DNA of 63,376 nucleotides, the filler included, from Octopus bimaculoides (lineage: Eukaryota): the NCBI RefSeq assembly GCF_001194135.2. It is 4 parts of 4 records of this genome, joined end to end, with 100 filler letters (N's around TTAATTAATTAA, not from the genome) between each part and the next. Parts side by side here need not be neighbours in the genome. Positions count along the whole stretch, not along the records: positions 1 to 18,594 come from NC_068985.1; positions 18,695 to 36,483 come from NC_068993.1; positions 36,584 to 61,537 come from NC_068990.1; 1 more part is not named here. One strand, written 5' to 3'. A program made the translations under genes and the position numbers. Each line of letters opens with the position of its first letter. Positions within the stretch are counted from its first letter, which is position 1. Positions 12,540 to 45,610 of this stretch are shown here, piece by piece. The notes beneath the pieces are model-generated. The model was not told where the DNA came from and searched no databases. It was given only the letters and a program-made list of their open reading frames with translations.

Positions 12540-12762
12540 CTCTCACCAAGGTCAGTGGCTATCGAACGCCGACGAAGGGAAATAACCCTGAAATCCGGAT
12601 CCGTTCGTGCTACAGATCATGGTGAGAGGGATAACTTCCCTTGGCAAACAGGACACAGTCGTGTGTCGATAAGCCAGCTGGAGGAGTTGTCCTCCTGGGG
12701 CTAAAAGCAACAGTAACATCCACCCCTAGGGGTCAGCCACACTTAAGTGGCAATATACTACA
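12540..12762 (+). mobile_element. Hammerhead-bearing non-coding element, family 1 copy A
   Basis: 12668-12755 aligns with 16008-16093 (GATAA.CCAGCTGGA.GAG..TCCTCCTGGGG.TAAA...AAGTGGC.ATA). Confidence 0.65.
12563..12607 (+). ncRNA. Minimal Type I hammerhead ribozyme (family 1), U4C core variant
   Basis: CGAACG-CCGACGA-AGGG(AAATAA)CCCT-GAAA-TCCGGA-TC-CGTTCG. Helix III is the palindrome ATCCGGAT, with an AUC site; outer helix CTCTCACCA/TGGTGAGAG (12540-12548/12620-12628). Confidence 0.78.
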
Positions 12763-13683
12763 CTTTATATNNNNNNNNNNNNNNNNNNNNNNNNNNNNNN
12801 NNNNNNNNNNNNNNNNNNNNNNNNNNNNNNNNNNNNNNNNNNNNNNNNNNNNNNNNNNNNNNNNNNNNNNNNNNNNNNNNNNNNNNNNNNNNNNNNNNNN
12901 NNNNNNNNNNNNNNNNNNNNNNNNNNNNNNNNNNNNNNNNNNNNNNNNNNNNNNTATATATATATATATATGTATATATATGTATGTATGTAAAGTAAAT
13001 TATAGTTAAACTCTTGCATTCTTTACTCAATGCACGCTTTTCATAATACACAATCTATAAGCAAATCTAATGGTAATATAATTGCACTTAACTCTTCAAA
13101 TTTAGATCTTTCGAAATGCCATCCTTACTGAAGGCCAAATGAAATACTCCAGTATAGAAAGAGAGAATTTGACTTTGTTTATCAACGAAAACATACCATA
13201 AATGTTGCTTCAATAATTTTGCAAATTATTATAATTCTTATTTAAAGGACAGTGATTTTAAGGTGAATACTTATTACATAAGCAGAAAAAAGAAACACAT
13301 CTCGACAAAGCTCAAGATTAGGAAGGGGAAAGTACTATGATATAAATCTCCTTTTAATTTAGGTATAAGTATTAGCATAGCACTTTTTGTTTTTAACTTG
13401 ATAGATATATATTTTCTAGAAACATGCAAGAGAATTTTCGACAGAAATTGTATTTAGGTCATCTTCTTCTTCACCGAGTGGTTCTCTAAATGTTAACTAA
13501 CAGAAATTTTTTAAATCCTACAATCTCAACAAATTCTAGCAATACTACAAAATGTAATTGGATTAGTACTTTTACGAGTTCTTTAAATGAAAATTGTACT
13601 GCCAGTTCCAGTATATGCTACACAAATCTGTGAACAAGCGATAATTCAACTTACGTCATTTAAACCATGGATACAATAAGCAC

Positions 13684-13903
13684 GGCGAGCTGGCAGAAAC
13701 GTTAGCACGCTGAGCGAAATGCTTAGCGGTATTTCGTCTGCCGTAACGTTCTGAGTTCAAATTCCGCTGAGGTCGACTTTGCCTATCATCCTTTCGGGGT
13801 TGATAAATTGAGTACCAGTTACTCACTGGAGTCGACTTAATCCCTTTGTCTGTCCTTGTTTGTCCCCTCTATGCTTAGCCCCTTGTGGGCAATAAAGAAA
13901 TAA
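13684..13903 (+). mobile_element. tRNA-derived SINE family A, full length
   Basis: GGCGAGCTGGCAGAAACGTTAGC head with A-box-like motif, B-box GAGTTCAAATTC, ends AATAAAGAAATAA; near-identical copies at 26952 and 43735. Confidence 0.9.
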
Positions 13904-14250
13904 CAATCTTTGATACTCCAGCCATAAAACCGAACACGACAGATTTTCAACTGTAATTCATTTTCGTATACTCAGCATTTTATACTTTATGATATAAGAA
14001 ATTAATCACGTGGTAAGAGCTTACAGTAAGCAGAGGGAGGTTTTTCAGCTTTACTCATCTTAAAAACAAAACACTCTCTGTTCCAAAATGAAAAGATTCT
14101 CAATGGTAAATCAGAAATAATTTCATTTTGCCGTCACAAGTGGTGGTTTATTTAAAAACATTTTCTTGACCGAATAAGTAATTTAAACAGAGGTATTAAA
14201 TCCTTTCCGTGCGTTTTCGTAGTGATTTGTTTTACTTCATTAATAATACT

Positions 14251-14472
14251 ATCTATCTATCTATCGATCTATCGATCGATCTAGCTAGCTAGCTAGCTAG
14301 CTATCTGTCTGTCAGCCTGTCTTGTTCCTCTGTCTGTCCGTCTGTTGTCAGTCTGTCTATTGACCGTCTATTTGATTCTATATCTATGTCTCTGTCTGTA
14401 TGTCTGTCTGTCTGTATGTCTGTCTGTCTGTCTGTCTGCCTGCCTCTCTCTCTCTCTCTCTATCTGTCTGCC

Positions 14473-14508
<36 letters not shown>
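14251..14508. repeat. (CTAT)/(CTAG)/(CTGT)n compound microsatellite
   Basis: Direct reading. Confidence 0.9.
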
Positions 14509-14510
<2 letters not shown>

Positions 14511-14695
14511 AGAAACTATGCATTTATCTATCTACCTATAAATTGTCCTCCTATCCACATATTTTACGTTAGAATCGAAAAATTTAAGTTAATATTTGAC
14601 AGCGAACATTAGATTTATTTAGATGTAGATGCAAAATTCAGTGCAGTGCCAAAATTGCTATTATCGGTGTAAGTATTATCAGCAAAATTTATTAT

Positions 14696-14698
<3 letters not shown>

Positions 14699-14757
<59 letters not shown>

Positions 14758-14946
14758 GTTGTTCTTGTTGAAGTTGTTGCTAGAGTTATGCACCTAACTC
14801 TTATTGATGTTACTTTTTAGTTTCGGATCGATCCTCAGCCGACGAACCTTTATTGAAACACATTCCAGCAATGTCCATCCCGTCTTTTCTTCTAAATGTT
14901 AGTGTCACATCATCCATGGTGTCCACGCTGCTTTAATGTAGTAGTG

Positions 14947-14997
<51 letters not shown>

Positions 14998-14998
14998 C

Positions 14999-15029
<31 letters not shown>
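14699..15029. repeat. (CTA)n and (GTA)n arrays in opposite orientation flanking a family X repeat fragment
   Basis: (CTA)n at 14699-14757 and (GTA)n at 14937-15029. Confidence 0.85.
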
Positions 15030-15344
15030 TATAATGATAGTGGCATATAGCAACATATTTATTAGAATCACCTTCAATATTGTATTGCTTCTCTAAAGGA
15101 GCCTCTTGAGGGTTGCTTGTCTTGCTAGATATAGCAGCAAAACTCTCACTAAAACCATACATTACTGTTGAAAGTTTGGAAGACATTGAATGATGCCGTT
15201 TTCAAAATAACACTACACCGTTTTATGAAAGGAAATATACATTGGATAATAGAATTTTATAATATCTTGTGTTGACGGACAAACTCATTGTTTGTTTTTT
15301 TTCCATTTATTTTAATCACATTAAGTGAAGTTGAAGGTGACAGT

Positions 15345-15650
15345 ATCATGACAGCAACGTATCTGTTGTACTTATTCCCTAGTGGATTGTCGTGGATCCT
15401 TGTGGATGAGTTCGTTCAATAAGCCATCAGCGAAAGAAATGCTCAGCTGGAACTAAGAGAATGTATGTGGTAGAATTCCCCACCCTTGAAGTATGAAGAC
15501 CATTTCTATGCAATTCTTTCAGTAATAGCCCCCTCTCCGTACTTAACACATGTGTCTCGAGAACGGCATTGTCCGTTTTGAAATCCTTGACTGAAAGCGA
15601 AGGCAAGCATATGTCAAAATACTCATCGGCTTCTATTTTGGCACTCCAGC
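15345..15650 (-). mobile_element. mariner transposase N-terminal (HTH) remnant
   Basis: Minus strand MLECQ..HMLAFAFSQG..RDTCVKYGEGAITERIA*KWSSYFKGGEF, matching the mariner N-terminus (IC.VYGE.A...R.A.KWF..FK.G.F). Confidence 0.65.
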
Positions 15651-15689
15651 ATCATATGCCCGAAGAGAGGTAAAATTTATTCAAATATT

Positions 15690-15948
15690 AGTGGCGATCA
15701 ACATTACTTCTCAGTACAGTTACTACTTTCATTTCTTATTGGAGATTTTCTAACCAACTACTTTGCTTGCTGGAAGATCAATGATGGGTTGTCATATATT
15801 TTTCTATATATTGCGAGCTGGAGAAGATTACTGCTATCTCTAGCAGACGGGTGTCCACCACATTGGATGAGAACAAATAGCTCGATACCGTACTACTTAT
15901 TGGTCACGTCGTCTGCTAGAAGATAGTAGGGGTTCGTTTCCCTCCTTG

Positions 15949-15993
<45 letters not shown>

Positions 15994-16195
15994 GTGCAAA
16001 TTGCATGGATAACCAGCTGGAAGAGGTTCCTCCTGGGGTTAAATACGGTAGTAACATTGATTCCTACGAAACAGCCATATTGAAGTGGCGATAAACATTA
16101 CTTCTTAGTATTGTTACTATTATAGAGATTTTCTAACTTCTACTATTATTTTCTAATCTCTTATAGAGATTTTCTAACTAGCCACTTAGCTTGAT
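15690..16195 (+). mobile_element. Family 1 copy B: direct repeats 394 nt apart enclosing a hairpin with a degenerate hammerhead
   Basis: AGTGGCGAT.AACATTACTTCT.AGTA at 15690 and 16084; GAGATTTTCTAAC repeated after both; stem CTGCTATCT-CTAGCAGACG/CGTCTGCTAG-A-AGATAGTAG (15831-15929) encloses GGATGA-GA..TC-GATA-CCGTAC. Confidence 0.62.
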
Positions 16196-16455
16196 AATGA
16201 AACAAAAATTTAGAGGAAGAACAAAACTACGCAATTCATAAAGCACTAGAATAAAAATTATTTTTCCTATGTTTAATTCATATAACATGGGAAAGAAACG
16301 AACGAATTTATCTTAGAGCCTAATATTATATAAAAAAAAATTGGCCGCTCCATGACCAAAGGTTAACTGGATGAGCATTGATCTGTTGTTGAACAATCAC
16401 AAGAACAATAAGAACATAAGCAACAACACAATAAGACCAAGATCAATAACCAGAG

Positions 16456-16672
16456 AATAATGGCTTCAAATTTTGGCATAGTGTAAGCAGGTTTGAGGGG
16501 AGGGGTAAGTCGATCACATCGACCTCAGTACTTGACTGGTACTAATTTTATTGAACTTGAAAGGATGAAAGCGAAGTCGATATCGGCAGAATTTGAACTC
16601 AGTACGGAAAGAGGGGCGAAATGGTGCTAAGCATTTTGTGTATCATGCTAACGATTCTGTCTGCTCACCACT
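16456..16672 (-). mobile_element. tRNA-derived SINE family A
   Basis: Reverse-complement B-box (GAATTTGAACTC) and family A body. Confidence 0.8.
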
Positions 16673-16773
16673 TTGATAACGTAACAATAATGGGAACAAT
16701 GAGAACAACAATGACAACAACAGTAATAACAAGATTAATTATAGCGGCAGCAATGATAATATCAGAAACTAGT

Positions 16774-17030
16774 GGATGCGCGTGGCCTAGTGGTTAGTGC
16801 GTTGGACTCATGATCGTAAGATGGTGGTTTCGATTTCTGGACCGGGCGACACGCGTTTCTGAAAAAAAAAACAAACACTTCACTTCACGTTGCTCCAGTC
16901 CACTCAGCTAGCAAAAGTGAATAATCCTGCGATGGACCGGCGTCTCGTCCTGGTGGGTAATTTATACACCATGGAAACCTGGAAACCAGTAACCCAGCCC
17001 TTATGAGCCAGTATGACTCGAGAAGGAAGG
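16774..17030 (+). mobile_element. tRNA-derived SINE family C
   Basis: tRNA-like head GCGCGTGGCCTAGTGGTTAG..GGTTTCGATTTC, then TTGCTCCAGTCCACTCAGCT..CCATGGAAAC..CCCTTATGAG; paralogue at 60731. Confidence 0.85.
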
Positions 17031-17045
17031 ACGGAATCAAAAAGC

Positions 17046-17225
17046 TTAGCATAAAGTAAAACAACAATAGTAACAACATCTTGAACAACAACAACAACAA
17101 CAAAACAACAATGATAACAGCGGCTGCAATAACATAACATCAGCATTGTCAACAGCCGTAGCAGGGACTGTAGCAACTGTAGCATCAACAACGGAAACAA
17201 CAACATCAGCAATAACAAAAATAAC

Positions 17226-17289
<64 letters not shown>

Positions 17290-17360
17290 CAGCAGCAGTA
17301 ATACCTCAATAACAACAACAACAACAACAACTACTGCTGCTGCTGCTGCTGCTGCTACTT

Positions 17361-17400
<40 letters not shown>

Positions 17401-18110
17401 AATAACTACCACAATAACAACAACAGCAATTACTTATGCAGCAACCACAACAAAATACAATAATGAACGTAACAGCTAACACAATAACAAGGAAAACAAC
17501 AACAACAACAACAATAATTGTCATAAAAGCTATAACTAGTACAGCAACTACAACCGCAAACACAACAAAAAAATGATCATAATAAAAAGAAAAACACAAT
17601 AGCAATAAGTAGCATCAACACCACCACCACAACAACAACAAAAAGAACCACCTGTACCACCACATGGATACTGTATCAACAGAATTAACAACAGTAACAG
17701 CAAGCATAGCGATCATCAAGGCCACAACATCAAAACGACAATGAAACAATAGTCAGAACCACCACCACCGCCACCTTCATAGCAATCACAGCATTAACAA
17801 TCACAATAATATCAACAACCACAACAAGAACAAGAACCACAGTCATAAAGACAAGGACAAGAAACACAATTACAACAAACACTACAGCAATAACCTTAAC
17901 CACAATGACTATTGCTACCTCCAACGCCACAGCTAGAACCAACAACAGCAATAGCAACAAAACAGGAACCTCAGCCATAAGCAACACAATAACAACAGAA
18001 AAAGCATCAATCATAAAAAAACCAGAGCAACAACAGCCAATATGAAAGCAATAACGTGATCATCAACAGCAGTCATCATCATCAGCAACAACAATAACAA
18101 TCATTGCTAT
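17046..18110. repeat. Long degenerate trinucleotide (CAA/CAG/CAT/CTA) low-complexity tract
   Basis: Direct reading; source of the spurious poly-V/L/M ORFs. Confidence 0.9.
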
Positions 18111-18594
18111 GTGGAATGTATTGTTAGTTTGCCACCATTATAGGTTGCTGCTGCTGCTTGCTTTAATCGAATGAAAGGCCAAGACAAACCTTTGCAAGAT
18201 TTGATCTCAGAACGAATTAAATTATTGATAAAATGTTAATAAAATAAAAAAAATTACTAAAATATTTATAATATACTGAATGAAATACAGCGAAATATAA
18301 AAATGATATAACAATAAAATAAAATAAAATCGAAGTATAAATAAATGTTATATTCGTAGACGAAAAAAAAAAAAAAATGGAAATTTAAATTAACCAAATA
18401 AATTATTTCAGTTTTCATATTCCGTATTTTTGTTAGTTTTTGTATAAATGAAATAATTTGAGAGGAAGGAATAAATGATAAACATCCATATATATATATA
18501 TATATATGCATTTATTTAAGTATGTGTATGTCTATGTATTGGTGCATTCATGTGCATATGCTGGTTTGTGTGTGTGTAGTTATGTATGTATATA

Positions 18595-18694
18595 NNNNNN
18601 NNNNNNNNNNNNNNNNNNNNNNNNNNNNNNNNNNNNNNTTAATTAATTAANNNNNNNNNNNNNNNNNNNNNNNNNNNNNNNNNNNNNNNNNNNN
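18595..18694. other. Artificial 100-bp assembly join: 44 N + TTAATTAATTAA + 44 N
   Basis: Identical structure at 36484-36583 and 61538-61637. Confidence 0.93.
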
Positions 18695-19224
18695 AATAAT
18701 AATAATAATAATTACATGGCCGTTTTGTGTTTTATTGAAAGTCAAGCAATGCTGCTACCAACCGTCGGTAACGATTGGTTTGTAAGTTGACTGATGTCGA
18801 TAGTAAAAGGTTTGTCTTCAGAAGGCAGATGTTGATTATTAAGATTGATAAATAGTTAATTCAGTACGTTAAGGCACCTTTGCCCTTCACGTTGCACCAA
18901 ACACATACACCCAGTCGTTATATATATAGATATATATATTTATATTCTTAACAAAGTCTCCTTTCCGTTTTCTTCACCTCTTTCTCTCTCTTTCTACCTC
19001 TTGTTCACTTGCTCTCTCTCTCTCTCTTCAAATGTTCTTGTTGTTGTTGGTGGTTTTTAGATTGTATTCTTTTTGTTTTTTTGTTTCTTTCTTTAGAGGT
19101 TCTTTTTGGTTCTTATGTATTGAGTCTTATACTAACCAGCACCAGATCTAAGAGCGGAAGAACGCGAACAGATGAACACTTCTTTGTTTCTGACCAACAG
19201 TCTATCATTAAATATTTGCCATTC

Positions 19225-19250
19225 AACCTATCTCTCTTTGTCTCTTTGTC

Positions 19251-19325
<75 letters not shown>

Positions 19326-19754
19326 ATCTTTCTCTCTTTCTAACTCTTTCCCTCGTTCTCTCTCTGTCTCTCTTTATCTATCGATCTATCTCTCTGTCTA
19401 CCTATCTATCTCTGTATCTATCTTGGAATATCTCTCTCTCTCTCTCTCTCTTTTTTTCTCACTGTTTCTTGATATATCTATCAACCTATATATTATTTAT
19501 CTCTCTCTTTCTCTCATTCTCTCTCTCTCTCTCTTATTCTCTCCCTCTCTCATTCTCTCTCTTTCTATCTCTCTCTCTCTCTCGCTTTACTTATTTATCT
19601 ATCAATTTATCTATCTCTGTACGCAAACCCTTAAACAGAATTCACCTGATATTGCTGCTTTCACATACATCATCATATACATACATTTATATTTTTCATA
19701 TATATGTATATATATTTATATACACATATACACATATATACATGTATGCATGTA

Positions 19755-19797
<43 letters not shown>
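19225..19797. repeat. (CT)n/(CTAT)n then (TA)n low-complexity tract before a gap
   Basis: Direct reading. Confidence 0.9.
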
Positions 19798-20639
19798 NNN
19801 NNNNNNNNNNNNNNNNNNNNNNNNNNNNNNNNNNNNNNNNNNNNNNNNNNNNNNNNNNNNNNNNNNNNNNNNNNNNNNNNNNNNNNNNNNNNNNNNNNNN
19901 NNNNNNNNNNNNNNNNNNNNNNNNNNNNNNNNNNNNNNNNNNNNNNNNNNNNNNNNNNNNNNNNNNNNNNNNNNNNNNNNNNNNNNNNNNNNNNNNNNNN
20001 NNNNNNNNNNNNNNNNNNNNNNNNNNNNNNNNNNNNNNNNNNNNNNNNNNNNNNNNNNNNNNNNNNNNNNNNNNNNNNNNNNNNNNNNNNNNNNNNNNNN
20101 NNNNNNNNNNNNNNNNNNNNNNNNNNNNNNNNNNNNNNNNNNNNNNNNNNNNNNNNNNNNNNNNNNNNNNNNNNNNNNNNNNNNNNNNNNNNNNNNNNNN
20201 NNNNNNNNNNNNNNNNNNNNNNNNNNNNNNNNNNNNNNNNNNNNNNNNNNNNNNNNNNNNNNNNNNNNNNNNNNNNNNNNNNNNNNNNNNNNNNNNNNNN
20301 NNNNNNNNNNNNNNNNNNNNNNNNNNNNNNNNNNNNNNNNNNNNNNNNNNNNNNNNNNNNNNNNNNNNNNNNNNNNNNNNNNNNNNNNNNNNNNNNNNNN
20401 NNNNNNNNNNNNNATGTATATTGTATATCAATAGTCTATATATATATACATATATACTTTTAGGCTTTGCTGTATTGGTTCATTGAAATTCGTTCTCACC
20501 ATTCCTATTTTTATAGCCTACATATGGTTGTCTAACTTTGACGTGATGGATGAATTGAGGGTTTGCTAGGCCATCTGCACGAAGATAGACGAACAGACAG
20601 CCATGTGCAAAGTCAGATAAATAGATGTCTTTATTTGTG

Positions 20640-20686
<47 letters not shown>

Positions 20687-20807
20687 ATCTGTGTGTAAAA
20701 AAAAGTTGTTACATTCGCACATATTCCACTTATATACATGCATACATATATACGTACATATATATATTTATATATATTCATAGACACACACACACACACA
20801 TATACAT

Positions 20808-20844
<37 letters not shown>

Positions 20845-20999
20845 CTTATGCACACACAAATATACTCTAAATGTAGCCCTGCACGTGGAATACCCGATAT
20901 ATACATAAGTATATACCTGCATATGTTATTCTATGTGTATGTGTGTGTAAGTCCATGTGTGTGTAAGTGTATGAGGCGTCGCGTGTGTTTGTGTGCATA

Positions 21000-21445
21000 A
21001 ACCTACCTATTCGTTCCGGTATGGATGATTACGAAGAATATTTTCTTCGTAATTATGAGGTCTCTAGTTCAAATACGCTGTATACCATCTTACCAAGTTT
21101 TTGTTTTTCTTACACATTGGCCTACATATTTTAACTCTCTGGCTTCCACTTTAGCGTCACTATACAACCGTATTTTCGATATTTCTCTGAGGACGTGTCC
21201 GCTGCATTTCCAGCGTCTGCATCATGTTTCATCACTAATTCTGTTGATGTCCGTTGTCGACTCAACCGCGTCATTTCGGACACTTTGCAGCCACTTCATG
21301 TCGAGTATTCTCCATAAGCATGTGGAGCGGAAACTGTCTGTTGATATTTCTTCCATTTTTGTCAGTTTCCAGTTTTCACATCCGTAGAGTAATACTGGTC
21401 GGACCAACATCTCGAACAGCTTCAGTTTCGTTTTGGGACCAATAC
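21000..21445 (-). mobile_element. RTE-clade LINE 3' end (post-RT region)
   Basis: Minus strand KLKLFEMLVRPVLLYGCENWKLTK..CLWRILDMKW..VRN..ISDE(T)..RWKCSGHVLR, the LLYG.E.W / C.RRIL.I.W / RW.W.GHV.R pattern of RTE elements. Confidence 0.85.
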
Positions 21446-22107
21446 CTTTGTTGACTGAACTGCAGTGACATAAAATGAAGGATTTTTGTTCAATGATATA
21501 AATCGCTGCACGGGAACCGAACCCACGATTTTAAAATCGTCAGCACAACATCTTTAACCTCCACGTAATAATCGATAAATCCGTTATTGAATCGTTATCA
21601 CATAATTATACCTAATAGTAATAAACATGAGTCAATTTATCGTCTTTTCTGCTATAATTTCTCCGTGATTCTAAATCAAAACACAAATATACCCATGTAC
21701 CAAATTAAAAACAAAAACGAAAAAAAAATACAGAAAAATATATAAAGTAATCAATAATATACATATATCGATTCATTCGTCTATATTCATTTCCGACAAG
21801 TATTGACCTTCTGCTTACTACATAACATGTCTACAATTTTGTAGTTTGGCGATTATATTACTATCGAAGAATTCTCTAAATATATATTTATAGCCTAAGG
21901 AGAAATAGAAATATTACTGAAGAACTTTTACGATTAATCATATATTGTTGTGAAACCCCGGGTCTGCTTTGATCGACCAGACAGACCTATGGCATGTGGG
22001 CAGTGAGTAGGAAGGTAGGGGGTAGGGACGTAGAGGTTAGGGAGGTAGGGGCAGAGAGGTAGGGGCAGAGAGGTCGGTGTAGGGAGGTAGAGGAAACAAC
22101 GATTAGG

Positions 22108-22735
22108 AAGTACCCATACATACATACATACATGCGACATACACATACATTCACACATACATGCGTATAGACACACCCATACACGCACACATACATACAT
22201 ACATACATACATGCACATACATAAACACGCATACATTCACACATACATACATACACGTGCACACATTCATACATACATACGTACGCACACATACATACAT
22301 GCATACATACATACATACATACATACATATACACATACATACATACATTCATACACACATATATACTTATACATACATGCATGCATACATACATACATAC
22401 ATACATACACACACATACATACACACGCATACATTCACACATACATACAAACATACACACGCACGTGTACACACATGCATACATACACTCATATACACAT
22501 AATTACATATACATACATGCATGCATGCATACATACATAAATGCACATATACATACACACGCATACATTCATACATACATACACACGCACGTGCACACAT
22601 ACATACATGCGTACACCCGCATACATTCGCACATATATACACACACACGTGCAAACATATATACATACCTACATACACACACATATATACATACATGCAT
22701 ACATACAAACGTACACAAAATACGTATATATACAT
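22108..22735. repeat. Long degenerate (CATA)n/(CA)n tract
   Basis: Direct reading. Confidence 0.93.
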
Positions 22736-23248
22736 CCCCCAACCAATCCAGATAAACACAGACTCCAAGACCTTTACCAACTTAAACAGTAGAACCTTGC
22801 CATTTTGCTGATGACAGACTTAAATTAGCAAAGGGAAAATTCTTAAATATATTCCAAAGAAGCACACATACAATCTAGAGCATAGAAAATTCAAAGCATT
22901 TTATTTACCTGAAAGAAATCCCAGTGTTTCATGTCATTCGCTCTGATTTATTGTCGAATTCCCCGCAATAGCACGAAATTTCAACTTCTTTCAATATTTT
23001 CTGCGAATTTTAATTTAAAAATTCTCATAATTGATTGTTTATATAAATCATTTTTGCTTTTAAATGAATTTAATTTAGAATATAATAGTGATAATTGGAG
23101 AAATTAATTGTCTTTGAGTGTAAGCTGGTGATTATTTTAACTGTAGAGTTAATGAATTTGATCTCTACATCTATATTCAATAGACAAAGCTATGAAAACT
23201 GAGTAGTATTCAATTGTATTTATTAAAATAATTATACATGGTGATTTT

Positions 23249-23298
<50 letters not shown>

Positions 23299-23755
23299 AG
23301 AGAATATATACAATGCATACCATACCGAATCCATTAATGTATTTCATATTACAATAAAATATGTCATTAAAATCAGCGTAATTCTGATACAGTTCTCAAA
23401 AGGTTTTAATTCGAATTTCACTAGAGTTTTTGTTGGGTCTCTTTTTTTTACGAATTTTCATTTTAACTACATGAAACTATGTAAATGTAAATACATTTAT
23501 GTTATATATATATGATATTATTATTTAAAAGAATAATTTTCAATGCGCTTGTTGATTAAGTTACTGTTATTGCCATTATTTTCAGTGATATACAGAATTA
23601 CGATTTACAAGTAACATTAGCCCAGAAAACATTACTTAAGTGTTTGTATAGCCTGGTACAGGAGAAAACCTGAGGAGTTGGGTGATTCCATGAAACACCG
23701 TACTGCGTAATATCAATCCTATCGTCTCCATTGTTCAGAGTGATTTAGTTAACTA

Positions 23756-23835
23756 CCGTATTCGATAGCGTATAAGATGCACATTTTCCCCAAAGATATA
23801 TATCAAAAAGTTGCCCGGGGCCCTGTATACGAAGC
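23756..23835 (+). mobile_element. pogo/Tc2-type MITE terminus fragment
   Basis: TA-CCGTATTCGATAGCGTATAAGATGCAC resembles the TIR of the MITE at 46190-46415. Confidence 0.45.
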
Positions 23836-23989
23836 TGGGTCTATATTACATGCTTTAATGTAATAATGTTTTTGTCTGAATACCATCAAATACAATAAGA
23901 AGAACTGTTTGAGTTCAGGCCGACTCTGAGATGAGGCCCCGCTTGCTAGAACAACTGATTACTTATGTTTTGCTCAAACCAAACCCAGG

Positions 23990-24930: not shown

Positions 24931-25158
24931 AGACTCTAGTTATTAGTACGATGCCCAACCGGGCTGAATCATTAAAAACTGCATAAATCATATCAACTAA
25001 AATCACTAGATTAGGTATTTAAATACATCAAATGACACTATTTTGTCTTTACAAATATAAATCTTTTAAAAACGTGTCTATTTACTTTTGGGATGTCTTT
25101 GTATGTATGTGTACATATTCTTTTATTCTTTTATTCTTTTATTCTTTTATTCTTTTAT

Positions 25159-25587
25159 TTGTTTCACTCATTTAACGGCGACTATGCTACAGCACCGCCT
25201 TAAAAGGGTTTTAGTCGAAAAAGTCAACTCCAAGACATTTTCTTTGAAAGTTTAGTACTTATTTATATAGGTCACTTTTGCCGAATCACTAATTTATAGG
25301 GATGCAAACACACCAACATCGGTTGTGAAGCGACCGTGGGGAAACAAACACAGACACAAAGACACACACACTCAAGCACACAAAGACACATACACACACA
25401 CACACACACACCCACACACACACACACACACAAACATATATATACATATATATATATTCAGTTTCCGTCTACCAAATTCACTAACAAGGCTTTGGTCGGC
25501 CTGAGGTTTTAGTAGAAGACACTTGCCCAAGGTGTCACGCAGTGGGACTGAACCTGAAACCATGAGCTTGAGACTCAAGCTTCTTAC

Positions 25588-25592
<5 letters not shown>
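25159..25592 (-). mobile_element. SINE family B with internal (CA)/(TA) microsatellite
   Basis: GACACTTGCCCAAGGTG..CAGTGGGACTGAACC (reverse-complement B-box) and the shared family B tail; paralogues at 39951 and 61708. Confidence 0.88.
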
Positions 25593-25621
<29 letters not shown>

Positions 25622-38316: not shown

Positions 38317-39075
38317 AAAGTCGAATTTAAAGTTAAAGAATTAAAGTTTAGAAAGTAGGCATTAAATGTTTCAGGGCAAGTTCCAAGTAGTGTGTATGCG
38401 GACCACATGCACCAGCTGTGGCTATCATGCAAAACAAGAACGCAACAGGCGACAATTAAACATCCGGACATATAGACGATACAAAGACGGACAGGGAAAA
38501 TAACAAAAAGACGGACAGGAAAAAAACAAGGACGAGTCATTCGTGGCCTTCTCTCCTCAGTCAAGTTTCCAGATTGTCCTTACAGTCTCGGCCGGCTACA
38601 CTTGAGACTGTTCAAATCTGGTTGGCGCCCAAAAATATAAGATAAGAGCATTAAATATTTTGTGAGAAAGCAAGTGCATGTGTACGACAACGAAGACAAA
38701 AAAAAACCGACCCTCCCCCACGAAAAAAAAACGGAGAAAATGTTACACAATTACAAATACAAGCAACAAGAAAATAACAACAGGGGTCTTTCGACTAACA
38801 GAAACGAATCAAGCTGAGCTGGCGTGTGTAGAGAGAAAGCCTTGAAGCAGAAACACAGGAGATAAACATAAGAGATGAAAGTCATGAGACAGGAACATAA
38901 GAGATGCTTCGCGGGCGGCAGTTAAGAAAGAAAGATCATGCCTGGCCGAACACCGGTCACGTGCAAGGCAGGGAGAAAGGAGGAGCAGAGGGATTGAAGA
39001 ACAAGGGGAGTACGAGAAAGAGAGAAAATCAGAGGGACACAGAGACGGTACAAGGGAGATAAGCGAGGTATATAT
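38310..39075. mobile_element. Purine-rich non-coding interspersed repeat, possibly a Penelope-type terminal region
   Basis: GC-richer than flanks, local hairpins (CCAGATT/AATCTGG, CAGTCTC/GAGACTG), no credible ORF. Assignment is inference only. Confidence 0.3.
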
Positions 39076-39482
39076 ATATANNNNNNNNNNNNNNNNNNNN
39101 NNNNNNNNNNNNNNNNNNNNNNNNNNNNNNNNNNNNNNNNNNNNNNNNNNNNNNNNNNNNNNNNNNNNNNNNNNNNNNNNNNNNNNNNNNNNNNNNNNNN
39201 NNNNNNNNNNNNNNNNNNNNNNNNNNNNNNNNNNNNNNNNNNNNNNNNNNNNNNNNNNNNNNNNNNNNNNNNNNNNNNNNNNNNNNNNNNNNNNNNNNNN
39301 NNNNNNNNNNNNNNNNNNNNNNNNNNNNNNNNNNNNNNNNNNNNNNNNNNNNNNNNNNNNNNNNNNNNNNNNNNNNNNNNNNNNNNNNNNNNNNNNNNNN
39401 NNNNNNNNNNNNNNNNNNNNNNNNNNNNNNNNNNNNNNNNNNNNNNNNNNNNNNNNNNNNNNNNNNNNNNNNNNNNNNNNNN

Positions 39483-39870
39483 TATAAGGATAAGATCGTT
39501 ATTTAAAAATACCGACCTTATCAGGTGGCCAGCATGGGAATAAAAACCTCAAAGGTAATAATTGTTATAAAAATTATAATTTAGGGTATCTGAGAGATAC
39601 CACCATGCTAGATATAGCAGCCAAACCTCCACTCTAAAATCACATTAAATGTTCATACAGCACCAAGAGAGAAGACAAAGAGACAAAATAAACTAACAAA
39701 AAAAAAATTACTGGATAATTCCAGATCCCGGATTTCTGGCTCTGCATAAGAAATGCTCTGCCTTCATCAATGGAATATACGCAGATAGCACATAAATACA
39801 AATATATACACATAAATACGAATGCGTACATATACGAACGTATACATACATATATATGCACGTATATATA
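39483..39870 (-). mobile_element. Hammerhead-bearing element family 2, copy D
   Basis: Reverse complement aligns with 49030-49320 and 60122-60270 (GGCTG.TATATCTAGCATGGTGGTATC..GATACCC..ATTATAATTTT). Confidence 0.75.
39718..39776 (-). ncRNA. Minimal Type I hammerhead ribozyme (family 2), C3U core variant
   Basis: Minus strand ATTCCA-TTGATGA-A-GGC-AGA-GCAT(TTCTT)ATGC-AGA-GCC-A-GAAA-TCCGGGA-TC-TGGAAT. Confidence 0.68.
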
Positions 39871-39950
39871 TNNNNNNNNNNNNNNNNNNNNNNNNNNNNN
39901 NNNNNNNNNNNNNNNNNNNNNNNNNNNNNNNNATATATATATATATATAA

Positions 39951-40118
39951 ACATACGATGGGATCTTTCGATTTCCGTCTACCAAATCCATTCATAAGGC
40001 TTTGGTCGGCCCGAGACTATAGTAGAAGACACTTGCCCAAGGTGCCACGCAGTGGGAGTGAACCCGGAACAATGTGGTTGGGAAGCAAGCTTCTTACTAC
40101 GCAGCCACGGCAGTGCCT
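39951..40118 (-). mobile_element. SINE family B 5' half
   Basis: TTTCCGTCTACCAAATCC..GACACTTGCCCAAGGTGCCACGCAGTGGGAGTGAACCC. Confidence 0.88.
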
Positions 40119-40239
40119 TACGTTTTTTTCTTAGAGGACATTAAGTATAATCTGTCTGGGTGGTCAAGGCTGGAATATCTTTGATCATAGTTCTGTTTGC
40201 GTTGCGGATCGGAAGGCTAAACAAGAATAGCAACACTAG

Positions 40240-40805
40240 CAGCAGCAGCAGCAGCAACAACAACAACAACAACAAGCAAAACCTGAACAATAAACTTGTT
40301 AATGGAATATCAAAAGCAACATGTGGAAGAACCCGATCATAGAAACATCATCATCATTTTCATTATAATCATCGTCATCATCATCATCATCATTTTCATT
40401 ATAATCATCGTCATCATCATCATCATCATTTTCATTATAATCATCGTCATCATCATCATCATCGTTGTCGCCGTCGTTCTCCCCTCCTACTCTTCCTCCT
40501 CGGCCTCCTCAACTTTCCTATCGTCATCGTCGTCGTCGTCATTATCATCATCATCATCATCATCATCGTTGCAGTAGCAGCACCACCACCACAACTACCC
40601 TCCTCCACATTTTCCTCCTTCCCTCGTTCCCATCATCATCACCACAATCATCCTCATCATCGTCGTAATTATCAAAACCACCATCACCACCATCACGTCG
40701 TCCTTGTCGTTGTCTTCATTATCATCATCATCATCATCATCATCATAATCATGATCATGATCATCATCATCATCAGCCGCAGCAACAACAATGTCAGTCA
40801 CAGCA
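40240..40805. repeat. (CAT)n/(CAA)n-rich tract including a three-copy unit of about 36 bp (CATTTTCATTATAATCATCGT..)
   Basis: Direct reading. Confidence 0.88.
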
Positions 40806-41312
40806 GCTACAACTGCGGCACCATTAGCATCACCGACAGCTAAACACCGTTTGGTAACGAATTGTGCAATGAAAAAATAATAATAAAGAAAGACGTTATG
40901 TAATCTATTGAAAGATGTCTAGCATAACTCGACTGCACAAGTCAGTTATTGATCTATCGATCTAGTGAAGTGTCCACCTTCGAACAATGACTAAAATCTA
41001 TCGATAGCGATTGTCCGTCCGGAAGAAAGGATGTGGGATTAGGGAAAATGTATAATTTTAAACATTTCCTTGATGAGACTCATATATTATGTATGTGTGT
41101 ATGCACGCACGCGTGTGTGTATGTGTGCGTGCGTGTGTATTGTGTGTGTGCGTGCGTGTTGTGTGTGTGTGTGTGTGTGACACCACTCAAGACCCATTAC
41201 AGTTATCTTTCTCCTTTCCTCCTCCTCCTCCTCATCCTCATCATCATCATCGTCTTTATATTCCTATATACATATATACATACCTACATACATATACACG
41301 TACACGCGCACG

Positions 41313-41348
<36 letters not shown>

Positions 41349-41809
41349 TACACACAAGTAAAAGGTTGATTTTCCTGGACCTTCGGTTGCAATGCCTTTT
41401 CCGGATTTCTAAGTTTCTCGAACGAAGAGTAGTTACATTGGTTAACAAACTTTCAATTAAACAAATGGTTTATATCTTTTATTATGTCTTACTCGTTTCT
41501 GTTACTGAACTGCACTCATGCTGGAGCACCTCCTCGAAAGAAAAAATATACAAGTATTAGCGTGGCTTGAACATGCGACATTCTGCGTGTAAAGCAGGAT
41601 ACTAATATTGAATTTACTTAAATAATTAAGTGTAATAAAGATACGAGTTTATTAATATTGTACTGTACAAAGTATAAGTTTGTGCAAGGTATGAAGGAAA
41701 CTTGTTTAGCGACTGCAGCAATTCGAAATTCCTACTCGTAAATTAGGGCGGATTATAAAAGGTTCTGGAACAACAGTGTCCAGAAAGTCGGTATTGTGCC
41801 TATATATAC

Positions 41810-41852
<43 letters not shown>

Positions 41853-42950
41853 NNNNNNNNNNNNNNNNNNNNNNNNNNNNNNNNNNNNNNNNNNNNNNNN
41901 NNNNNNNNNNNNNNNNNNNNNNNNNNNNNNNNNNNNNNNNNNNNNNNNNNNNNNNNNNNNNNNNNNNNNNNNNNNNNNNNNNNNNNNNNNNNNNNNNNNN
42001 NNNNNNNNNNNNNNNNNNNNNNNNNNNNNNNNNNNNNNNNNNNNNNNNNNNNNNNNNNNNNNNNNNNNNNNNNNNNNNNNNNNNNNNNNNNNNNNNNNNN
42101 NNNNNNNNNNNNNNNNNNNNNNNNNNNNNNNNNNNNNNNNNNNNNNNNNNNNNNNNNNNNNNNNNNNNNNNNNNNNNNNNNNNNNNNNNNNNNNNNNNNN
42201 NNNNNNNNNNNNNNNNNNNNNNNNNNNNNNNNNNNNNNNNNNNNNNNNNNNNNNNNNNNNNNNNNNNNNNNNNNNNNNNNNNNNNNNNNNNNNNNNNNNN
42301 NNNNNNNNNNNNNNNNNNNNNNNNNNNNNNNNNNNNNNNNNNNNNNNNNNNNNNNNNNNNNNNNNNNNNNNNNNNNNNNNNNNNNNNNNNNNNNNNNNNN
42401 NNNNNNNNNNNNNNNNNNNNNNNNNNNNNNNNNNNNNNNNNNNNNNNNNNNNNNNNNNNNNNNNNNNNNNNNNNNNNNNNNNNNNNNNNNNNNNNNNNNN
42501 NNNNNNNNNNNNNNNNNNNNNNNNNNNNNNNNNNNNNNNNNNNNNNNNNNNNNNNNNNNNNNNNNNNNNNNNNNNNNNNNNNNNNNNNNNNNNNNNNNNN
42601 NNNNNNNNNNNNNNNNNNNNNNNNNNNNNNNNNNNNNNNNNNNNNNNNNNNNNNNNNNNNNNNNNNNNNNNNNNNNNNNNNNNNNNNNNNNNNNNNNNNN
42701 NNNNNNNNNNNNNNNNNNNNNNNNNNNNNNNNNNNNNNATATATATATAAAAGAACGATATTATTCCTAAAAATAATAACGTTAGTGTCCGCGAGCTTGA
42801 AAGCCGCATCGGCAAATTAATAATTATATATAAATGTATTTGTATATACCAGGGTGCTACATAAACACCTGCTTCGCTAAAAATATTTATGTATATACCT
42901 ACATATGTGTGTGTGTGTGTTTATGTACAGACACAATCACACACACACGT

Positions 42951-42984
<34 letters not shown>

Positions 42985-43734
42985 GTAGTGACCTCATTTA
43001 GGCATAGAGTAGATTCGAACCTGAATCTGTCAATTTTCCTTAGCATTGCAACAGCATTTTTCTCACAGAAAAACAATAGTTGACAGCAGTTACATTCAAC
43101 ACATAGCTTTGCCAAGACACATTTTAACTCTTGGCCTCTTCTATGCAACCAAAAGTGGAAATTAAATAAAGGTGACCTACATCGAACAAACCTGTTGTTC
43201 ACAGCAAATATGTCCCTCTTTCTAACTAGATTGCATGGTTATAAATACTAAAGTTCCGTAAGGAAAAGTTAGTTGGTGAACAGAAACGACCAGAGATGAC
43301 AAGAGACAGACAGCCACAGGAGGCTGACGGCCAAACAATCGGTCGCTACGATACAACGTCCCTCTACTCCCACTAACTTGCTAACTAGCTCATTTCTCTC
43401 ACTCTATCACTATATTTGGCTTACTTCGGTTTATCTTTTACTCGTTTCTTTCATTGAACTGCTTGCTACGACAATGACGAGAACATGTACACACTTATAC
43501 AAGAAGAAATTAACCCTCTTAACACAGCATGCATGCTTTTCCACTTATGTTATACACACCCGCTGTCGTGTGTGGCTATACATACATATATACACTCAGA
43601 ACCACTCTAATAGCTTAGGACTGAAATTTAGGATTTCTCGGTTTTCTGTGAATCGATTTTGATAAAGCTTTACCCTGCTGGTTTGCGCTCTATGGCAACA
43701 CCATTGTTATGTTTTCATTATTCTATGACATGAA

Positions 43735-43952
43735 GGCGGCGAGCTGTCAGAAACGTTAGCACGCCGTGCGAAATGCGTAGCGGTATTTTGTTTGCCGCTA
43801 CGTTCTGAGTTCAAATTCTGCCAAGGTCGACTTTGCCTTTCATCCTTTCGGGGTCGATAAATTAAGTGCCAGTTGCGTACTGAGGTCGATCTAATCGACT
43901 GGCCCATTCCCCCAAAATTTCGGGCCTTGTGCCTAGAGTACAAAAAATTATT
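43735..43952 (+). mobile_element. tRNA-derived SINE family A (variant tail)
   Basis: Family A head and B-box GAGTTCAAATTC; tail GGCCTTGTGCCTAGAGTA. Confidence 0.9.
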
Positions 43953-44149
43953 CTATGTCATATCATTTCTTTTTTTATTTCAGATTCTCCAGTTTTGGGG
44001 TGAAACACGCTGATAGCTTTTGAATGAAAATAGCCCATCTAAACATTTTTTTTCTCCAGAAAATGAAGGGTAATGATACATATTAAGTATACATTGAATA
44101 TATGTTTAACAGAAAACCATAATTATATTATAACATTTATTGACATAAT

Positions 44150-44345
44150 GAATTATTTTGCCACATGAGCGTCATTTCGACGGATGACTTAAAAAACCGT
44201 ATTAGTCATGGAATCTTGTCAATTTCTTAGCAGTTGCAGATTGGATTGCCTCTGCTGCAGATTTGATGGTCGCCCATAAGACATCGTTTGACGTAAATTG
44301 GCGTCCATCAGCATAAACCCAACTTTTTTCCGTCGAATATTAGAC
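44150..44345 (-). mobile_element. Tc1-like transposase C-terminal remnant
   Basis: Minus strand VYADGRQFTSNDVLWATIKSAAEAIQSATAKKLT, resembling Tc1 C-termini. Confidence 0.55.
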
Positions 44346-44627
44346 TATTTTCTTCAGTCACTACACAGTGATCGCTTAGAAGTTTTAAGCTTATGAAATA
44401 TTGTTATTATCATTTACAGATTTGTAAAAAAATCCACACTGCTTTACCAAAAACTGTGGCTTTCCGAGTTAAATTTTGACTCTCATTTCTAGCAATCACC
44501 GGTGCTATTTTGCACCCTCATTTATTAATTTCTTTTTGATTTTTGAGTGCTGACGAGCCACCTATATTATAATGTATTTAAGATATCTTAATATATTAAC
44601 ATATCATTATAATATCTTATTGTATTG

Positions 44628-44672
<45 letters not shown>

Positions 44673-44809
44673 ACTCATACGTACATCCCTATATACATGC
44701 ACACACATATATATACTTACATACATAACATACATATAGAGATACATACATACATACATACATATATACATACATACATGCAAACTTATTACTCAAAAGC
44801 AGGAGCTAA

Positions 44810-45393
44810 AAGCTGCCAGTGAAAAACTCCGACATCAGAAGAGAATAACCGAGAGAAGAACAATAAAGAAACAATTTAACCACAACTAGGCAGCAGTATA
44901 CAGAGACATGAGAGGAGGAGCAGTAAACATCACGGAAGCTCCTTCACGAGAAGAAATAGACTCCTTCTAGAGGAAAATCGGGAGTAAAGAGGAGTATAAC
45001 CAAGATGCTTTGTGGCTGGAAGAAATCCGAAAAAAATTTTGCTCCTGAGTAACATCCAAGACAAACAACATTGATGGTGAAACTCTTGCAACTGTGATCC
45101 AGAAACTCCAGGATAGAAAAACATTTGGAAGAGACTCGATTGTTGGATATTGGTACAAGAAGCTAACATTCTACCAACCATATCTTATAAATCTGTACCA
45201 GCAAGCTTTCATTGGGAGCAGTAGCATACCACACTGGTTAACTCTGGCAGAGACAAAATTGATCCCCAAATGAAGAACCACTCACATGGCAAAAACTACC
45301 GGCCAATTGCATGCCAGAACTTAATGTATAAGATATATACTGCATATTCAAACCTCTTCCTCCAGGAACATGTGAAACCAATAACATTATCAC
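44810..45393 (+). mobile_element. R4/Dong-like LINE fragment: RT domains 0-2
   Basis: KQFNHN*AAVYRDM..PSREEIDSF*..DALWL..FGRDSIVGYWYKKL..PHWLTLAETKLIP..NYRPIACQNLMYKIYT. Confidence 0.88.
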
Positions 45394-45538
45394 AGTAAGG
45401 GATGAACACTAGGTGGACATCCAATATGCTAGAAAGAGGTCATCAACGACCCAACCACAAAGAAAAATAATGTTCTCCAGAAAAATTTCGCTAAACGCCA
45501 GAACAGGACAAAATGAGAAATATACAGAATAAAGAATT

Positions 45539-45610
45539 ATCTATGGACTTCACTTTCGAACATTAACGTTTTACTTACGTAACAACATCCGTGTTCTCAT
45601 CAGCAAAGAC
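45539..45610 (-). ncRNA. Type I hammerhead ribozyme (family 1 copy E), helix III degenerate
   Basis: Minus strand GTCTTTG-CTGATGA-GAACA..TGTTC-GAAA-GTGAAG-TC-CATAGAT: canonical core, G-C closing pair in helix II, GUC site, one mismatch in helix I, position 15.2 mismatched. Confidence 0.62.

What the first reader, a model, noticed from the sequence alone, without database searches (positions are those of the whole stretch)
12540..45610. Four-copy family of short non-coding elements carrying hammerhead ribozymes (retrozyme-like, family 1)
Seen in sequence: hammerhead folds at 12563-12607 (+), 30281-30330 (-), 45539-45610 (-) and a degenerate one at 15840-15919 (+). Each is followed about 135-155 nt downstream (excluding a TA run) by a related motif: TCCACCCCTAGGGGTCAGCCACACTTAAGTGGCAAT (12719-12754), CAGCCATATTGAAGTGGCGAT (16072-16092), TCACACTTAATGACGAT (minus strand, about 30135-30151) and TCCACCTAGTGTTCATCCCTTACTGTG (minus strand, about 45391-45417). 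The helices differ in sequence between copies but still pair, as expected if structure is conserved. None has an ORF, and copy B has direct repeats 394 nt apart. Established: minimal Type I hammerheads with palindromic helix III occur in Penelope-like element terminal repeats and in metazoan retrozymes, which are non-autonomous retroelements spreading through small circular RNAs. Inference: this may be an uncatalogued cephalopod retrozyme-like family with a 300-400 nt monomer.
Basis: partly seen in the sequence, partly recalled or inferred. Interest (0 to 1): 0.85.

Follow-up and report, generated by a model that had tools for sequence, protein, structure and literature searches.

The report
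High-copy hammerhead retrozyme in probable octopus
Two of the four sites are copies of an abundant, transcribed 345-base non-coding repeat that carries a predicted self-cutting hammerhead RNA and is likely spread by Penelope-type retrotransposon enzymes, a kind of element already known from other animals, while the other two hammerhead-like sites are not shown to belong to it.

Summary
The quoted sequences are real, but a four-copy family is not shown. Copies A (12428-12768) and B (about 15686-16195) are homologous, with five compensatory base-pair changes. C and D do not align with them. C is a real hammerhead fold that shares a short 3' hairpin at the same offset; D is marginal.

Laying public runs on A changed the scale. 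The unit is 345 nt and has roughly 10^4 relatives in genomic data (rough range 2,600-45,000). It is joined head-to-tail in DNA and in RNA, appears in RNA of two organisms, and shows an A>G/T>C excess suggestive of editing.

A's hammerhead has canonical type I geometry (6-bp helix I, 4-bp helix II, palindromic helix III), not the Penelope minimal type. It carries U4C and an A10.1-U11.1 pair, apparently in most relatives. No ORF, Pol III box or autonomous partner was found.

Best reading: a non-autonomous, Penelope-mobilised non-LTR retrozyme, a new member of a known kind. Cleavage, circular RNA, full genomic dimers and the partner element are untested. The host as an octopus is inferred, not named by any search.

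The parts
12428..12768 (+). Copy A: 341 nt of the 345-nt family unit; ends at a TA run and an assembly gap (N 12771-12954)
   Evidence: Summed contig depth 0.76-2.1 million across 12430-12768 against about 100 in the flank; joint 12768 to 12428 with 4 letters between, in DNA and RNA; fold z -9.2 linear, -8.6 circular
12385..12427 (+). Lead-in private to locus A, between a short TA run and the unit; no significant likeness to the unit's tail
   Evidence: Depth about 100 in DNA and 0 in raw RNA at 12379-12412; 831 of 1000 shuffles align as well
12525..12645 (+). Long rod (extended helix I) holding the hammerhead of A
   Evidence: -61.1 kcal/mol, z -7.8, 0 of 200 shuffles; frequent variants T12556C and A12612G are mutually compensatory
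12563..12607 (+). Type I hammerhead of A: helix I 6 bp, core CCGACGA (U4C) at 12569-12575, helix II 4 bp closed by A10.1-U11.1 with a 6-nt loop, GAAA at 12590-12593, palindrome 12593-12600, predicted cut after 12601
   Evidence: self-duplex of the 8-nt palindrome -10.9 kcal/mol, monomer hammerhead fold 8.5 kcal/mol above the minimum
12430..12718 (+). Closing helix 12430-12438 with 12710-12718 that encloses the unit's multibranch fold
   Evidence: Predicted in A and in B as 15719-15727 with 16047-16055, with two compensatory changes and one wobble
12668..12758 (+). Conserved 3' domain with four helices, ending in hairpins 12723-12732 and 12736-12751 and an AC-rich tail; inferred site of reverse-transcription start
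   Evidence: 68 of 91 identical to B; 3 compensatory pairs, 35 of 36 cells paired; loose ends at 12746 and 12753 and other subfamilies sharing only 12672-12753
15686..16195 (+). Copy B: older, diverged, about 1.3 units long (partial tandem), decayed hammerhead core in a rod at 15840-15919, TA run 15951-15990
   Evidence: Direct repeats 15690/16084 and 15742/16166; alignment to A; rod z -4.0
30272..30340 (-). Hammerhead C: intact CUGACGA core, extra base before G10.1-C11.1, 12-nt palindromic helix III, 15-bp interrupted helix I; appears one base short at the cleavage site. Membership of the A/B family not shown
   Evidence: Score 42, 0 of 300 shuffled windows reach 31; palindrome self-duplex -16.2 kcal/mol
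30135..30152 (-). Hairpin after C resembling the A/B 3' hairpin, at the same distance from the cut
   Evidence: 0 of 1500 and 11-12 of 3000 random windows; not found by the covariance model
45390..45810 (-). Element D: a strongly folding stretch of about 400 nt with a perfect hammerhead core at 45539-45610 (long helix II, non-palindromic helix III). Separate family or chance core
   Evidence: Fold z -6.9, 0 of 100 shuffles; hammerhead score 25, reached in 13 of 300 shuffled windows; no alignment to A, B or C

Best explanation
Copies A and B belong to an abundant, transcribed 345-nt non-coding repeat with a predicted type I hammerhead, which is likely a non-autonomous retroelement (non-LTR retrozyme) copied by the reverse transcriptase-endonuclease of a Penelope-like element. 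Shown: the unit length, head-to-tail joints in DNA and RNA, high abundance in DNA, transcripts in two organisms, a fold conserved by compensatory change, no ORF. Inferred: tandem or longer-than-unit transcripts are bound by a Penelope protein, which nicks AT-rich or (TA)n DNA and starts reverse transcription at or just after the conserved AC-rich 3' hairpin, leaving copies of one to a few units. Predicted: the hammerhead would cut slowly and only as a dimer or with protein help, since helix III is a short palindrome and the core has U4C; monomers might then be closed into circles, which is untested. C and D are most likely other hammerhead-bearing Penelope-related repeats; C may be a distant cousin.
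For:: summed contig depth 0.76-2.1 million over the whole unit, against about 100 in the flank and 46.8 for the locus's own contig, giving about 5,500-35,000 copies at the median (rough, and the tool warns that summed depth is no copy number). The joint 12768 to 12428 stands in 11 DNA contigs, in 97 raw RNA reads from 59 starts (25 more reads at four nearby joints; up to 72 letters on the shorter side) and in a contig of organism B. The letters between the sides vary (12 of 33 rows shown), so the joint is an old fixed part of the family rather than a random truncation point. The main loose end before 12428 is the unit's own tail in all three runs that list it. A-B covariation: 3 pairs plus 2 in the closing helix. 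A's helix sizes match the canonical metazoan type I hammerhead defined in PMC4209133, the type that PMC7229834 ties to retrozymes of 170-400 nt, mussel 350-390. A lies between TA runs; loose ends fall at 12746 and 12753. In the one Penelope protein studied in vitro, reverse transcription starts in an AC-rich stem-loop about 85-92 nt after the hammerhead cut and targets AT-rich DNA (PMC11167929). No tRNA-type A or B box in A or B, no tRNA gene.
Against: No autonomous partner found: no Penelope domain in 240 frames scanned (of 542 listed), and no likeness to the octopus Naiad termini by motif search or by eye. DNA contigs carry at most 33 letters on the shorter side of a joint, so full genomic dimers with two ribozymes are not shown, and the window holds none. 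No pile-up of read starts or ends anywhere, and no dip in depth at the predicted cut (tables 2 and 6). RNA level is modest: 1061 of 12.9 million reads, depth 170-510, far below the 3,600-25,000 expected from uniform transcription (assumes a recalled 2.7-Gb genome), whereas mussel retrozyme RNA is abundant. Both mate orientations are equal, so reads may come from host read-through in either direction. U4C lowers activity considerably in vitro (PMC3088659). 281 loose ends and 110 substitution rows were not shown. B runs about 100 nt past the hairpin, so not all ends fall there.
Confidence: 0.7

Rival explanations
1. A and B are only the terminal repeat (pLTR) or truncated 3' ends of an autonomous Penelope-like element, and the tandem joints come from its partial-tandem insertions.
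For: Penelope elements are 6.83% of the O. vulgaris genome in 190 families (PMC13282606 supplement row), carry hammerheads in pLTRs, and most motifs occur as solo remnants (PMC4209133). 24 of 57 Xenopus retrozyme families match catalogued elements, nearly all of them Penelope-like (preprint). 281 loose ends were hidden. Other subfamilies share only the 3' domain.
Against: One fixed joint giving a 345-nt unit; the dominant sequence before the unit is its own tail; depth shows no one-sided gradient; the hammerhead is canonical rather than minimal. Descent from a pLTR is compatible with the best explanation; this rival claims only that the unit never became independent.
Confidence: 0.17
2. The unit spreads without any use of its ribozyme, as a dispersed satellite or a Penelope passenger, and the hammerhead is a dead relic.
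For: U4C and A10.1-U11.1; the monomer's best fold pairs the core with loop 3; no RNA ends at the cut; hammerhead mutants do not affect Poseidon insertion in vitro; Naiads multiply without canonical hammerheads; 8 of 9 Xenopus dimers did not cleave.
Against: None of the 26 substitutions shown within the unit falls in 12566-12598 (core, helices II and III; about 2.5 expected, so weak), depth peaks there, and the only change shown at position 17 is C to A, which keeps the NUH rule.
Confidence: 0.1
3. All four loci descend from one ancient family whose sequence has turned over while the fold and a 3' signal were kept. This is a separate question from how A and B move.
For: C's hairpin at the same offset; weak likeness of C's upstream to A's tail (23 of 1000 shuffles); D's motif under one of three scorings (5 of 3000); D folds as a closed multibranch followed by two hairpins.
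Against: No pairwise alignment, no profile or covariance-model hit; different hammerhead types (extra base in C, long helix II in D); C's direct repeat is not significant (87 of 1000); the tests were chosen after seeing the motifs; the end of D's motif seems to overlap a LINE reverse-transcriptase fragment (recalled motif, not confirmed by a call).
Confidence: 0.2
4. The unit is a SINE moved by a LINE.
For: SINEs dominate octopus repeats (PMC8967140), and many families are unclassified; Schistosoma SINE-like repeats carry hammerheads (review).
Against: No Pol III boxes or tRNA head; head-to-tail fixed joint and partial-tandem copy B; no A-rich tail seen.
Confidence: 0.03

Closest known systems
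Metazoan non-LTR retrozymes (Cervera and de la Pena 2020, PMC7229834; passages and sections 14 and 17 read, supplement unreadable)
   Same: Non-coding unit of 345 nt (mussel 350-390), 44% GC, canonical-geometry type I hammerhead, strong self-pairing, head-to-tail joints, thousands of copies, transcribed
   Different: Core U4C and A10.1-U11.1; predicted monomer fold blocks the core; RNA modest in the one raw library; circles, cleavage and full dimers not shown; cephalopods not mentioned in the main text (0 hits)
Retrozymes as non-autonomous Penelope derivatives (Li, Clavereau and Pollet 2026, bioRxiv 10.64898/2026.07.22.740005; parts 1-3 of 5 read, i.e. abstract to discussion; supplements not seen)
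   Same: Dispersed monomers plus tandem forms, unit near 300-350 nt, host genus rich in Penelope elements
   Different: No mollusc was sampled there; their 'active' definition needs two consecutive units with complete hammerheads, not shown here; no pLTR relative identified here
[quoted passage not shown]
   Same: Palindromic helix III implying dimer cleavage; C has the extra base after A9 and G10.1-C11.1; D has a long helix II
   Different: A has 6-bp helix I with an internal loop, 4-bp helix II and a 2-bp helix III stem with tetraloop, which that paper calls canonical; no ORF is attached
Poseidon element PAc of Anolis (Frangieh et al. 2024, PMC11167929; main text read)
   Same: AC-rich stem-loop downstream of a hammerhead near the insertion end; AT-rich targets; no RNA ends at the cut
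   Different: PAc is autonomous; its start site is about 85-92 nt after the cut against 135-167 nt inferred here; nothing here was assayed
Octopus Naiad elements (Craig et al. 2021, PMC8557442; passages, metadata rows and supplement part 24 seen)
   Same: (TA)n insertion preference
   Different: Lack canonical hammerheads; no shared motif with A-D in the supplement; described as long inactive in cephalopods

Membership tests
Non-LTR retrozyme (A/B family) | Non-coding unit of about 170-400 nt | tested here: met
   345-nt unit; no Pfam family in frames over the loci
Non-LTR retrozyme (A/B family) | Type I hammerhead of canonical geometry | tested here: met
   Helix I 6 bp, helix II 4 bp, helix III 2 bp with palindromic tetraloop
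Non-LTR retrozyme (A/B family) | Intact catalytic core | tested here: inconclusive
   A has U4C and A10.1-U11.1; no row restoring them among 40 of 150 substitution rows shown; B decayed; U4C is a known low-activity natural variant
Non-LTR retrozyme (A/B family) | Genomic tandem repeats with at least two complete ribozymes | tested here: inconclusive
   Head-to-tail joint in DNA (11 contigs, short sides) and RNA (up to 72 letters; 111 plus 55 in one contig); B is about 1.3 units; no full dimer seen; no assembly held
Non-LTR retrozyme (A/B family) | Highly self-paired unit | tested here: met
   63% paired, z -9.2 linear and -8.6 circular; covariation with B
Non-LTR retrozyme (A/B family) | Transcribed | tested here: met
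   1061 raw RNA reads, with a substitution spectrum unlike DNA (A>G plus T>C to C>T plus G>A: 70:28 against 21:21, p 0.02); level modest, strand unknown
Non-LTR retrozyme (A/B family) | Accumulates as circular RNA | not testable with these tools
   The joint also exists in DNA, so RNA joints do not show circles
Non-LTR retrozyme (A/B family) | Self-cleavage | not testable with these tools
   No pile-up of ends in one fragmented cDNA library, which could not be expected to show it
Autonomous Penelope-like element (pLTR) | Reverse transcriptase plus GIY-YIG ORF adjoining the repeat | tested here: not met
   None in 240 frames of the window; the frame beside B found no relative; no ORF-like loose end among those shown, 281 hidden. 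Holds for these loci, not for the genome
Autonomous Penelope-like element (pLTR) | Minimal hammerhead CUGANGAH G...C GAAAN-palindrome-NUH | tested here: inconclusive
   Consensus from the PMC4209133 supplement: C fits the extra base and G-C pair, D partly, A does not
Penelope-mobilised insertion | AT-rich or (TA)n target and ends near an AC-rich stem-loop | tested here: inconclusive
   A and C lie between TA-rich runs, loose ends at 12746 and 12753; B does not fit; TA runs are everywhere in this window
tRNA-derived SINE | Pol III A and B boxes or tRNA head | tested here: not met
   None in A or B (box patterns recalled)
A/B family (for C and D) | Significant sequence or covariance-model similarity | tested here: not met
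   only a short anchored motif for C

The most novel reading that the evidence does not exclude
A retrozyme family reached about 10^4 copies while keeping a variant core (U4C, A10.1-U11.1) that locks the monomer in an inactive fold by pairing C3-C4-G5 with loop 3, a built-in safety catch released only in dimers or by Penelope protein. Its RNA is A-to-I edited, and A, B, C and perhaps D share a 3' AC-rich hairpin about 135 nt past the cut that is the Penelope reverse transcriptase's start signal, defining a cephalopod superfamily of ribozyme elements conserved in structure rather than sequence.
Probability: 0.2. Interest if true: 0.7.

Novelty: new member of a known kind. Interest (0 to 1): 0.45.

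Why it matters
It would extend animal retrozymes to cephalopods as a family of roughly ten thousand copies; searches for 'hammerhead ribozyme' with 'octopus' and 'retrozyme' with 'octopus' found no such description in the held library. Repbase, Dfam, the O. vulgaris repeat library, Lunse et al. 2017 and the PMC7229834 supplement could not be checked, so it may already be catalogued as an unknown repeat, SINE or Penelope fragment. It offers a clean test of two open points: whether retrozymes need efficient cleavage to spread (a common U4C core would say no, or show regulation), and which cis signal a Penelope protein reads on a passenger RNA. Its long rods in a heavily editing lineage would also be natural ADAR substrates.

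Tried and rejected
No whole genome is held, so copies could not be counted or bounded directly. Rfam gave only microsatellite-driven or chance hits. Pattern scans found nothing: viral contigs, metagenomes twice, prokaryote genomes. An nhmmer profile and a covariance model of A+B did not find C or D; MAFFT of all four gave no coherent alignment. With two sequences the pair-shuffle control cannot be significant (56 of 500). The frame beside B (15430-15651, minus) found no relative (longer proteins only). The frame beside D reads like a LINE reverse transcriptase from memory, but PDB searches were blank and the Atlas gave only a lead at 0.88. Octopus Naiad termini showed no shared motif. A direct repeat in C was not significant. 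G12536T (38% of RNA reads, 0.3% of DNA depth) could mean a few loci dominate expression, but it sits among indels that short contigs align differently, so I do not rely on it. The editing signal compares different individuals: significant for X22 (p 0.02) and X17 (p 0.005), not for X14 (p 0.29). The sigma-70 scan is irrelevant to a eukaryote and was blank. Lunse et al. 2017 is not held; I saw only its citation in review PMC6765202. A search for octopus satellite DNA with editing returned 0 papers. C and D were never laid on reads, so their copy number is unknown.

Full report
Setting. The window is AT-rich, full of microsatellites and gaps, and holds scattered repeat families. No call names the organism. 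No whole genome is held.

Check of the observation. The four quoted motifs and B's repeats 394 nt apart are present. A descriptor scan scored C 42, A 29 and D 25; of 300 shuffled windows 0 reached 31, 2 reached 29 and 13 reached 25. The descriptor was widened after seeing C; the stricter one missed it. A reads: helix I CGAACG/CGUUCG, core CCGACGA (U4C), helix II AGGG/CCCU with a 6-nt loop, GAAA, palindrome AUCCGGAU, cut predicted after C12601. It sits in a rod of z -7.8. B has a rod of different sequence (z -4.0) around a decayed core. C has an intact core and a 12-nt palindromic helix III but appears one base short at the cut. D has a perfect core, a long helix II and no palindrome, inside a 400-nt stretch folding at z -6.9. 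Rfam named no hammerhead.

One family or several. Only A and B align above shuffles (63 against 20.0 +/- 2.4; blastn E 3e-7; 68 of 91 identical in the 3' domain). They differ by three compensatory pairs in the 3' domain and two in a helix that closes the whole unit. A profile and a covariance model of A+B miss C and D. Anchored on the cut, C's hairpin is unlikely by chance (0 of 1500; 11-12 of 3000), D's depends on scoring (641 of 1500; 274, 5, 25 of 3000). These tests are post hoc. So A+B is a family, C a possible distant cousin, D unproven.

Evidence from public runs. 20 of 24 listed runs hold A or part of it, in 9 studies; 13 hold half its words or more, and six small, RNA-like or unlabelled assemblies from four studies hold 37-49%, one of them from a second organism. 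I laid 4 runs on 12260-12768 at 80% likeness. In the DNA run, summed depth is 0.76-2.1 million over the unit, about 100 in the flank, and 46.8 for the locus's own contig. Allowing for baseline and contig overlap this gives 5,500-35,000 copies at the median, 2,600-45,000 at the extremes; the tool warns that this is no true copy number. A joint from 12768 back to 12428 with four letters between defines a 345-nt unit. It stands in 11 DNA contigs, 97 raw RNA reads from 59 starts, and a contig of organism B; X14 shows it only as loose ends. Because DNA has it too, it does not prove circles, and short DNA contigs do not prove full dimers. RNA is modest (1061 of 12.9 million reads), equal in both mate orientations, with no pile-up of ends and no dip at the cut. 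A>G and T>C places are in excess in two of three RNA runs, suggesting A-to-I editing, though individuals differ.

Variation in the family. 40 of 150 substitution rows were shown, 26 of them within the unit. T12556C (78-83%) and A12612G (67-84%) are compensatory. Of the 16 substitutions at paired positions, 7 keep the pair, 2 pair with a listed partner change and 7 break A's predicted pair, so constraint is partial; co-occurrence on one molecule is not shown. Position 17 varies C to A (60% RNA, 38% DNA), keeping NUH. No row falls in 12566-12598, and none restores U4 or G10.1-C11.1, although rows of about 20% are listed, so the variant core is probably the majority state. That is an inference from absence in a cut table.

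Mechanism. Cervera and de la Pena 2014 (PMC4209133) define canonical metazoan type I hammerheads by helix I of 6 bp, helix II of 4 bp and a 1-2 bp helix III with a palindromic loop, active as dimers; A fits this, not the minimal Penelope form. Their 2020 paper (PMC7229834) places such motifs in 170-400-nt tandem units expressed as circles and proposes Penelope elements as the mobiliser; a 2026 preprint supports descent from pLTRs. For the Anolis Poseidon protein, reverse transcription starts inside an AC-rich stem-loop downstream of the hammerhead, targets AT-rich DNA, and does not need cleavage, which is itself protein-assisted (PMC11167929). Here the most conserved part is a 3' domain ending in an AC-rich hairpin, loose ends fall at 12746 and 12753, A ends at 12768 in TA, and B is a partial tandem. 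I infer the same route. In A's predicted monomer fold the core pairs with loop 3 and the hammerhead fold costs 8.5 kcal/mol, while two palindromes pair at -10.9; U4C is known to lower activity in vitro yet allow viroid infectivity (PMC3088659). Cleavage would therefore be slow and dimer- or protein-dependent.

Against this reading. No partner element was found in the window or among octopus Naiad consensus sequences, B's end does not fall at the hairpin, expression is low in the one raw library (selection unknown), and 281 loose ends were hidden, so a plain pLTR origin is not excluded.

Novelty. The kind is known. No cephalopod example appeared, nor in the main text of PMC7229834, but that paper's supplement, the preprint's supplements, one file of PMC4209133, Lunse et al. 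2017 and the repeat databases were not seen. Verdict: new member of a known kind, interest 0.45, with a 0.2 chance of a more unusual variant.

Noticed in passing
window 30435-30481 (minus): A second hammerhead-like relic abutting C: GUGAAGA, an extra A, a 5-bp G-C helix II with a CUUC loop and GAAA, inside a short inverted repeat; resembles the Penelope minimal consensus with a damaged first box.
   Followed up: no
window about 30980-31022 (plus): Possible third relic, CCGAUGA followed by a half helix and CGCGUCGG, apparently lacking the GAAA box; seen by eye only.
   Followed up: no
window 11888-12357 and 62554-62979: Large imperfect palindromes (about 67% self-complementary), MITE-like; the arm next to A has a few hundred times flank depth in DNA and is present in RNA.
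   Followed up: partly
window 51932-52175, 35565-35726, 59464-59915: Further inverted repeats, the first 91% self-complementary over 245 nt.
   Followed up: no
window 13677-13905, 16456-16698, 26946-27182, 31013-31223, 33500-33608, 43710-43952, 47419-47562, 48143-48360, 62248-62386: A dispersed family of about nine copies, SINE-like (naming recalled, not tested); other small families at 16782/50678/60736, 25152/38011/39966/61708 and 39484/49027/60121.
   Followed up: no
window about 44790-45400 (plus), also 1134-1499, 6374-6877, 9175-9975, 35003-35419: Broken frames that read like non-LTR retrotransposon proteins; only weak Pfam hints (zf-RVT E 0.025, RVT_1 E 0.044). The first ends where element D's 3' motif ends.
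   Followed up: partly
window 58355-58630 (plus), 53206-53490 (plus): Mariner-type transposase helix-turn-helix fragments (HTH_48 E 1.5e-4; weak HTH hits).
   Followed up: no
window 15430-15651 (minus): A 74-residue coding-looking frame directly upstream of B on the other strand; no relative found.
   Followed up: partly
window 12672 and 12746-12753 (loose ends): Other subfamilies share only the 3' domain with A and carry a different upstream hairpin; one expressed copy ends at the loop of the 3' hairpin and runs into AT-rich DNA.
   Followed up: partly
window 12716: A>G in 83 of 444 RNA reads against 0.5% of DNA depth, in the closing helix: a candidate editing site.
   Followed up: partly
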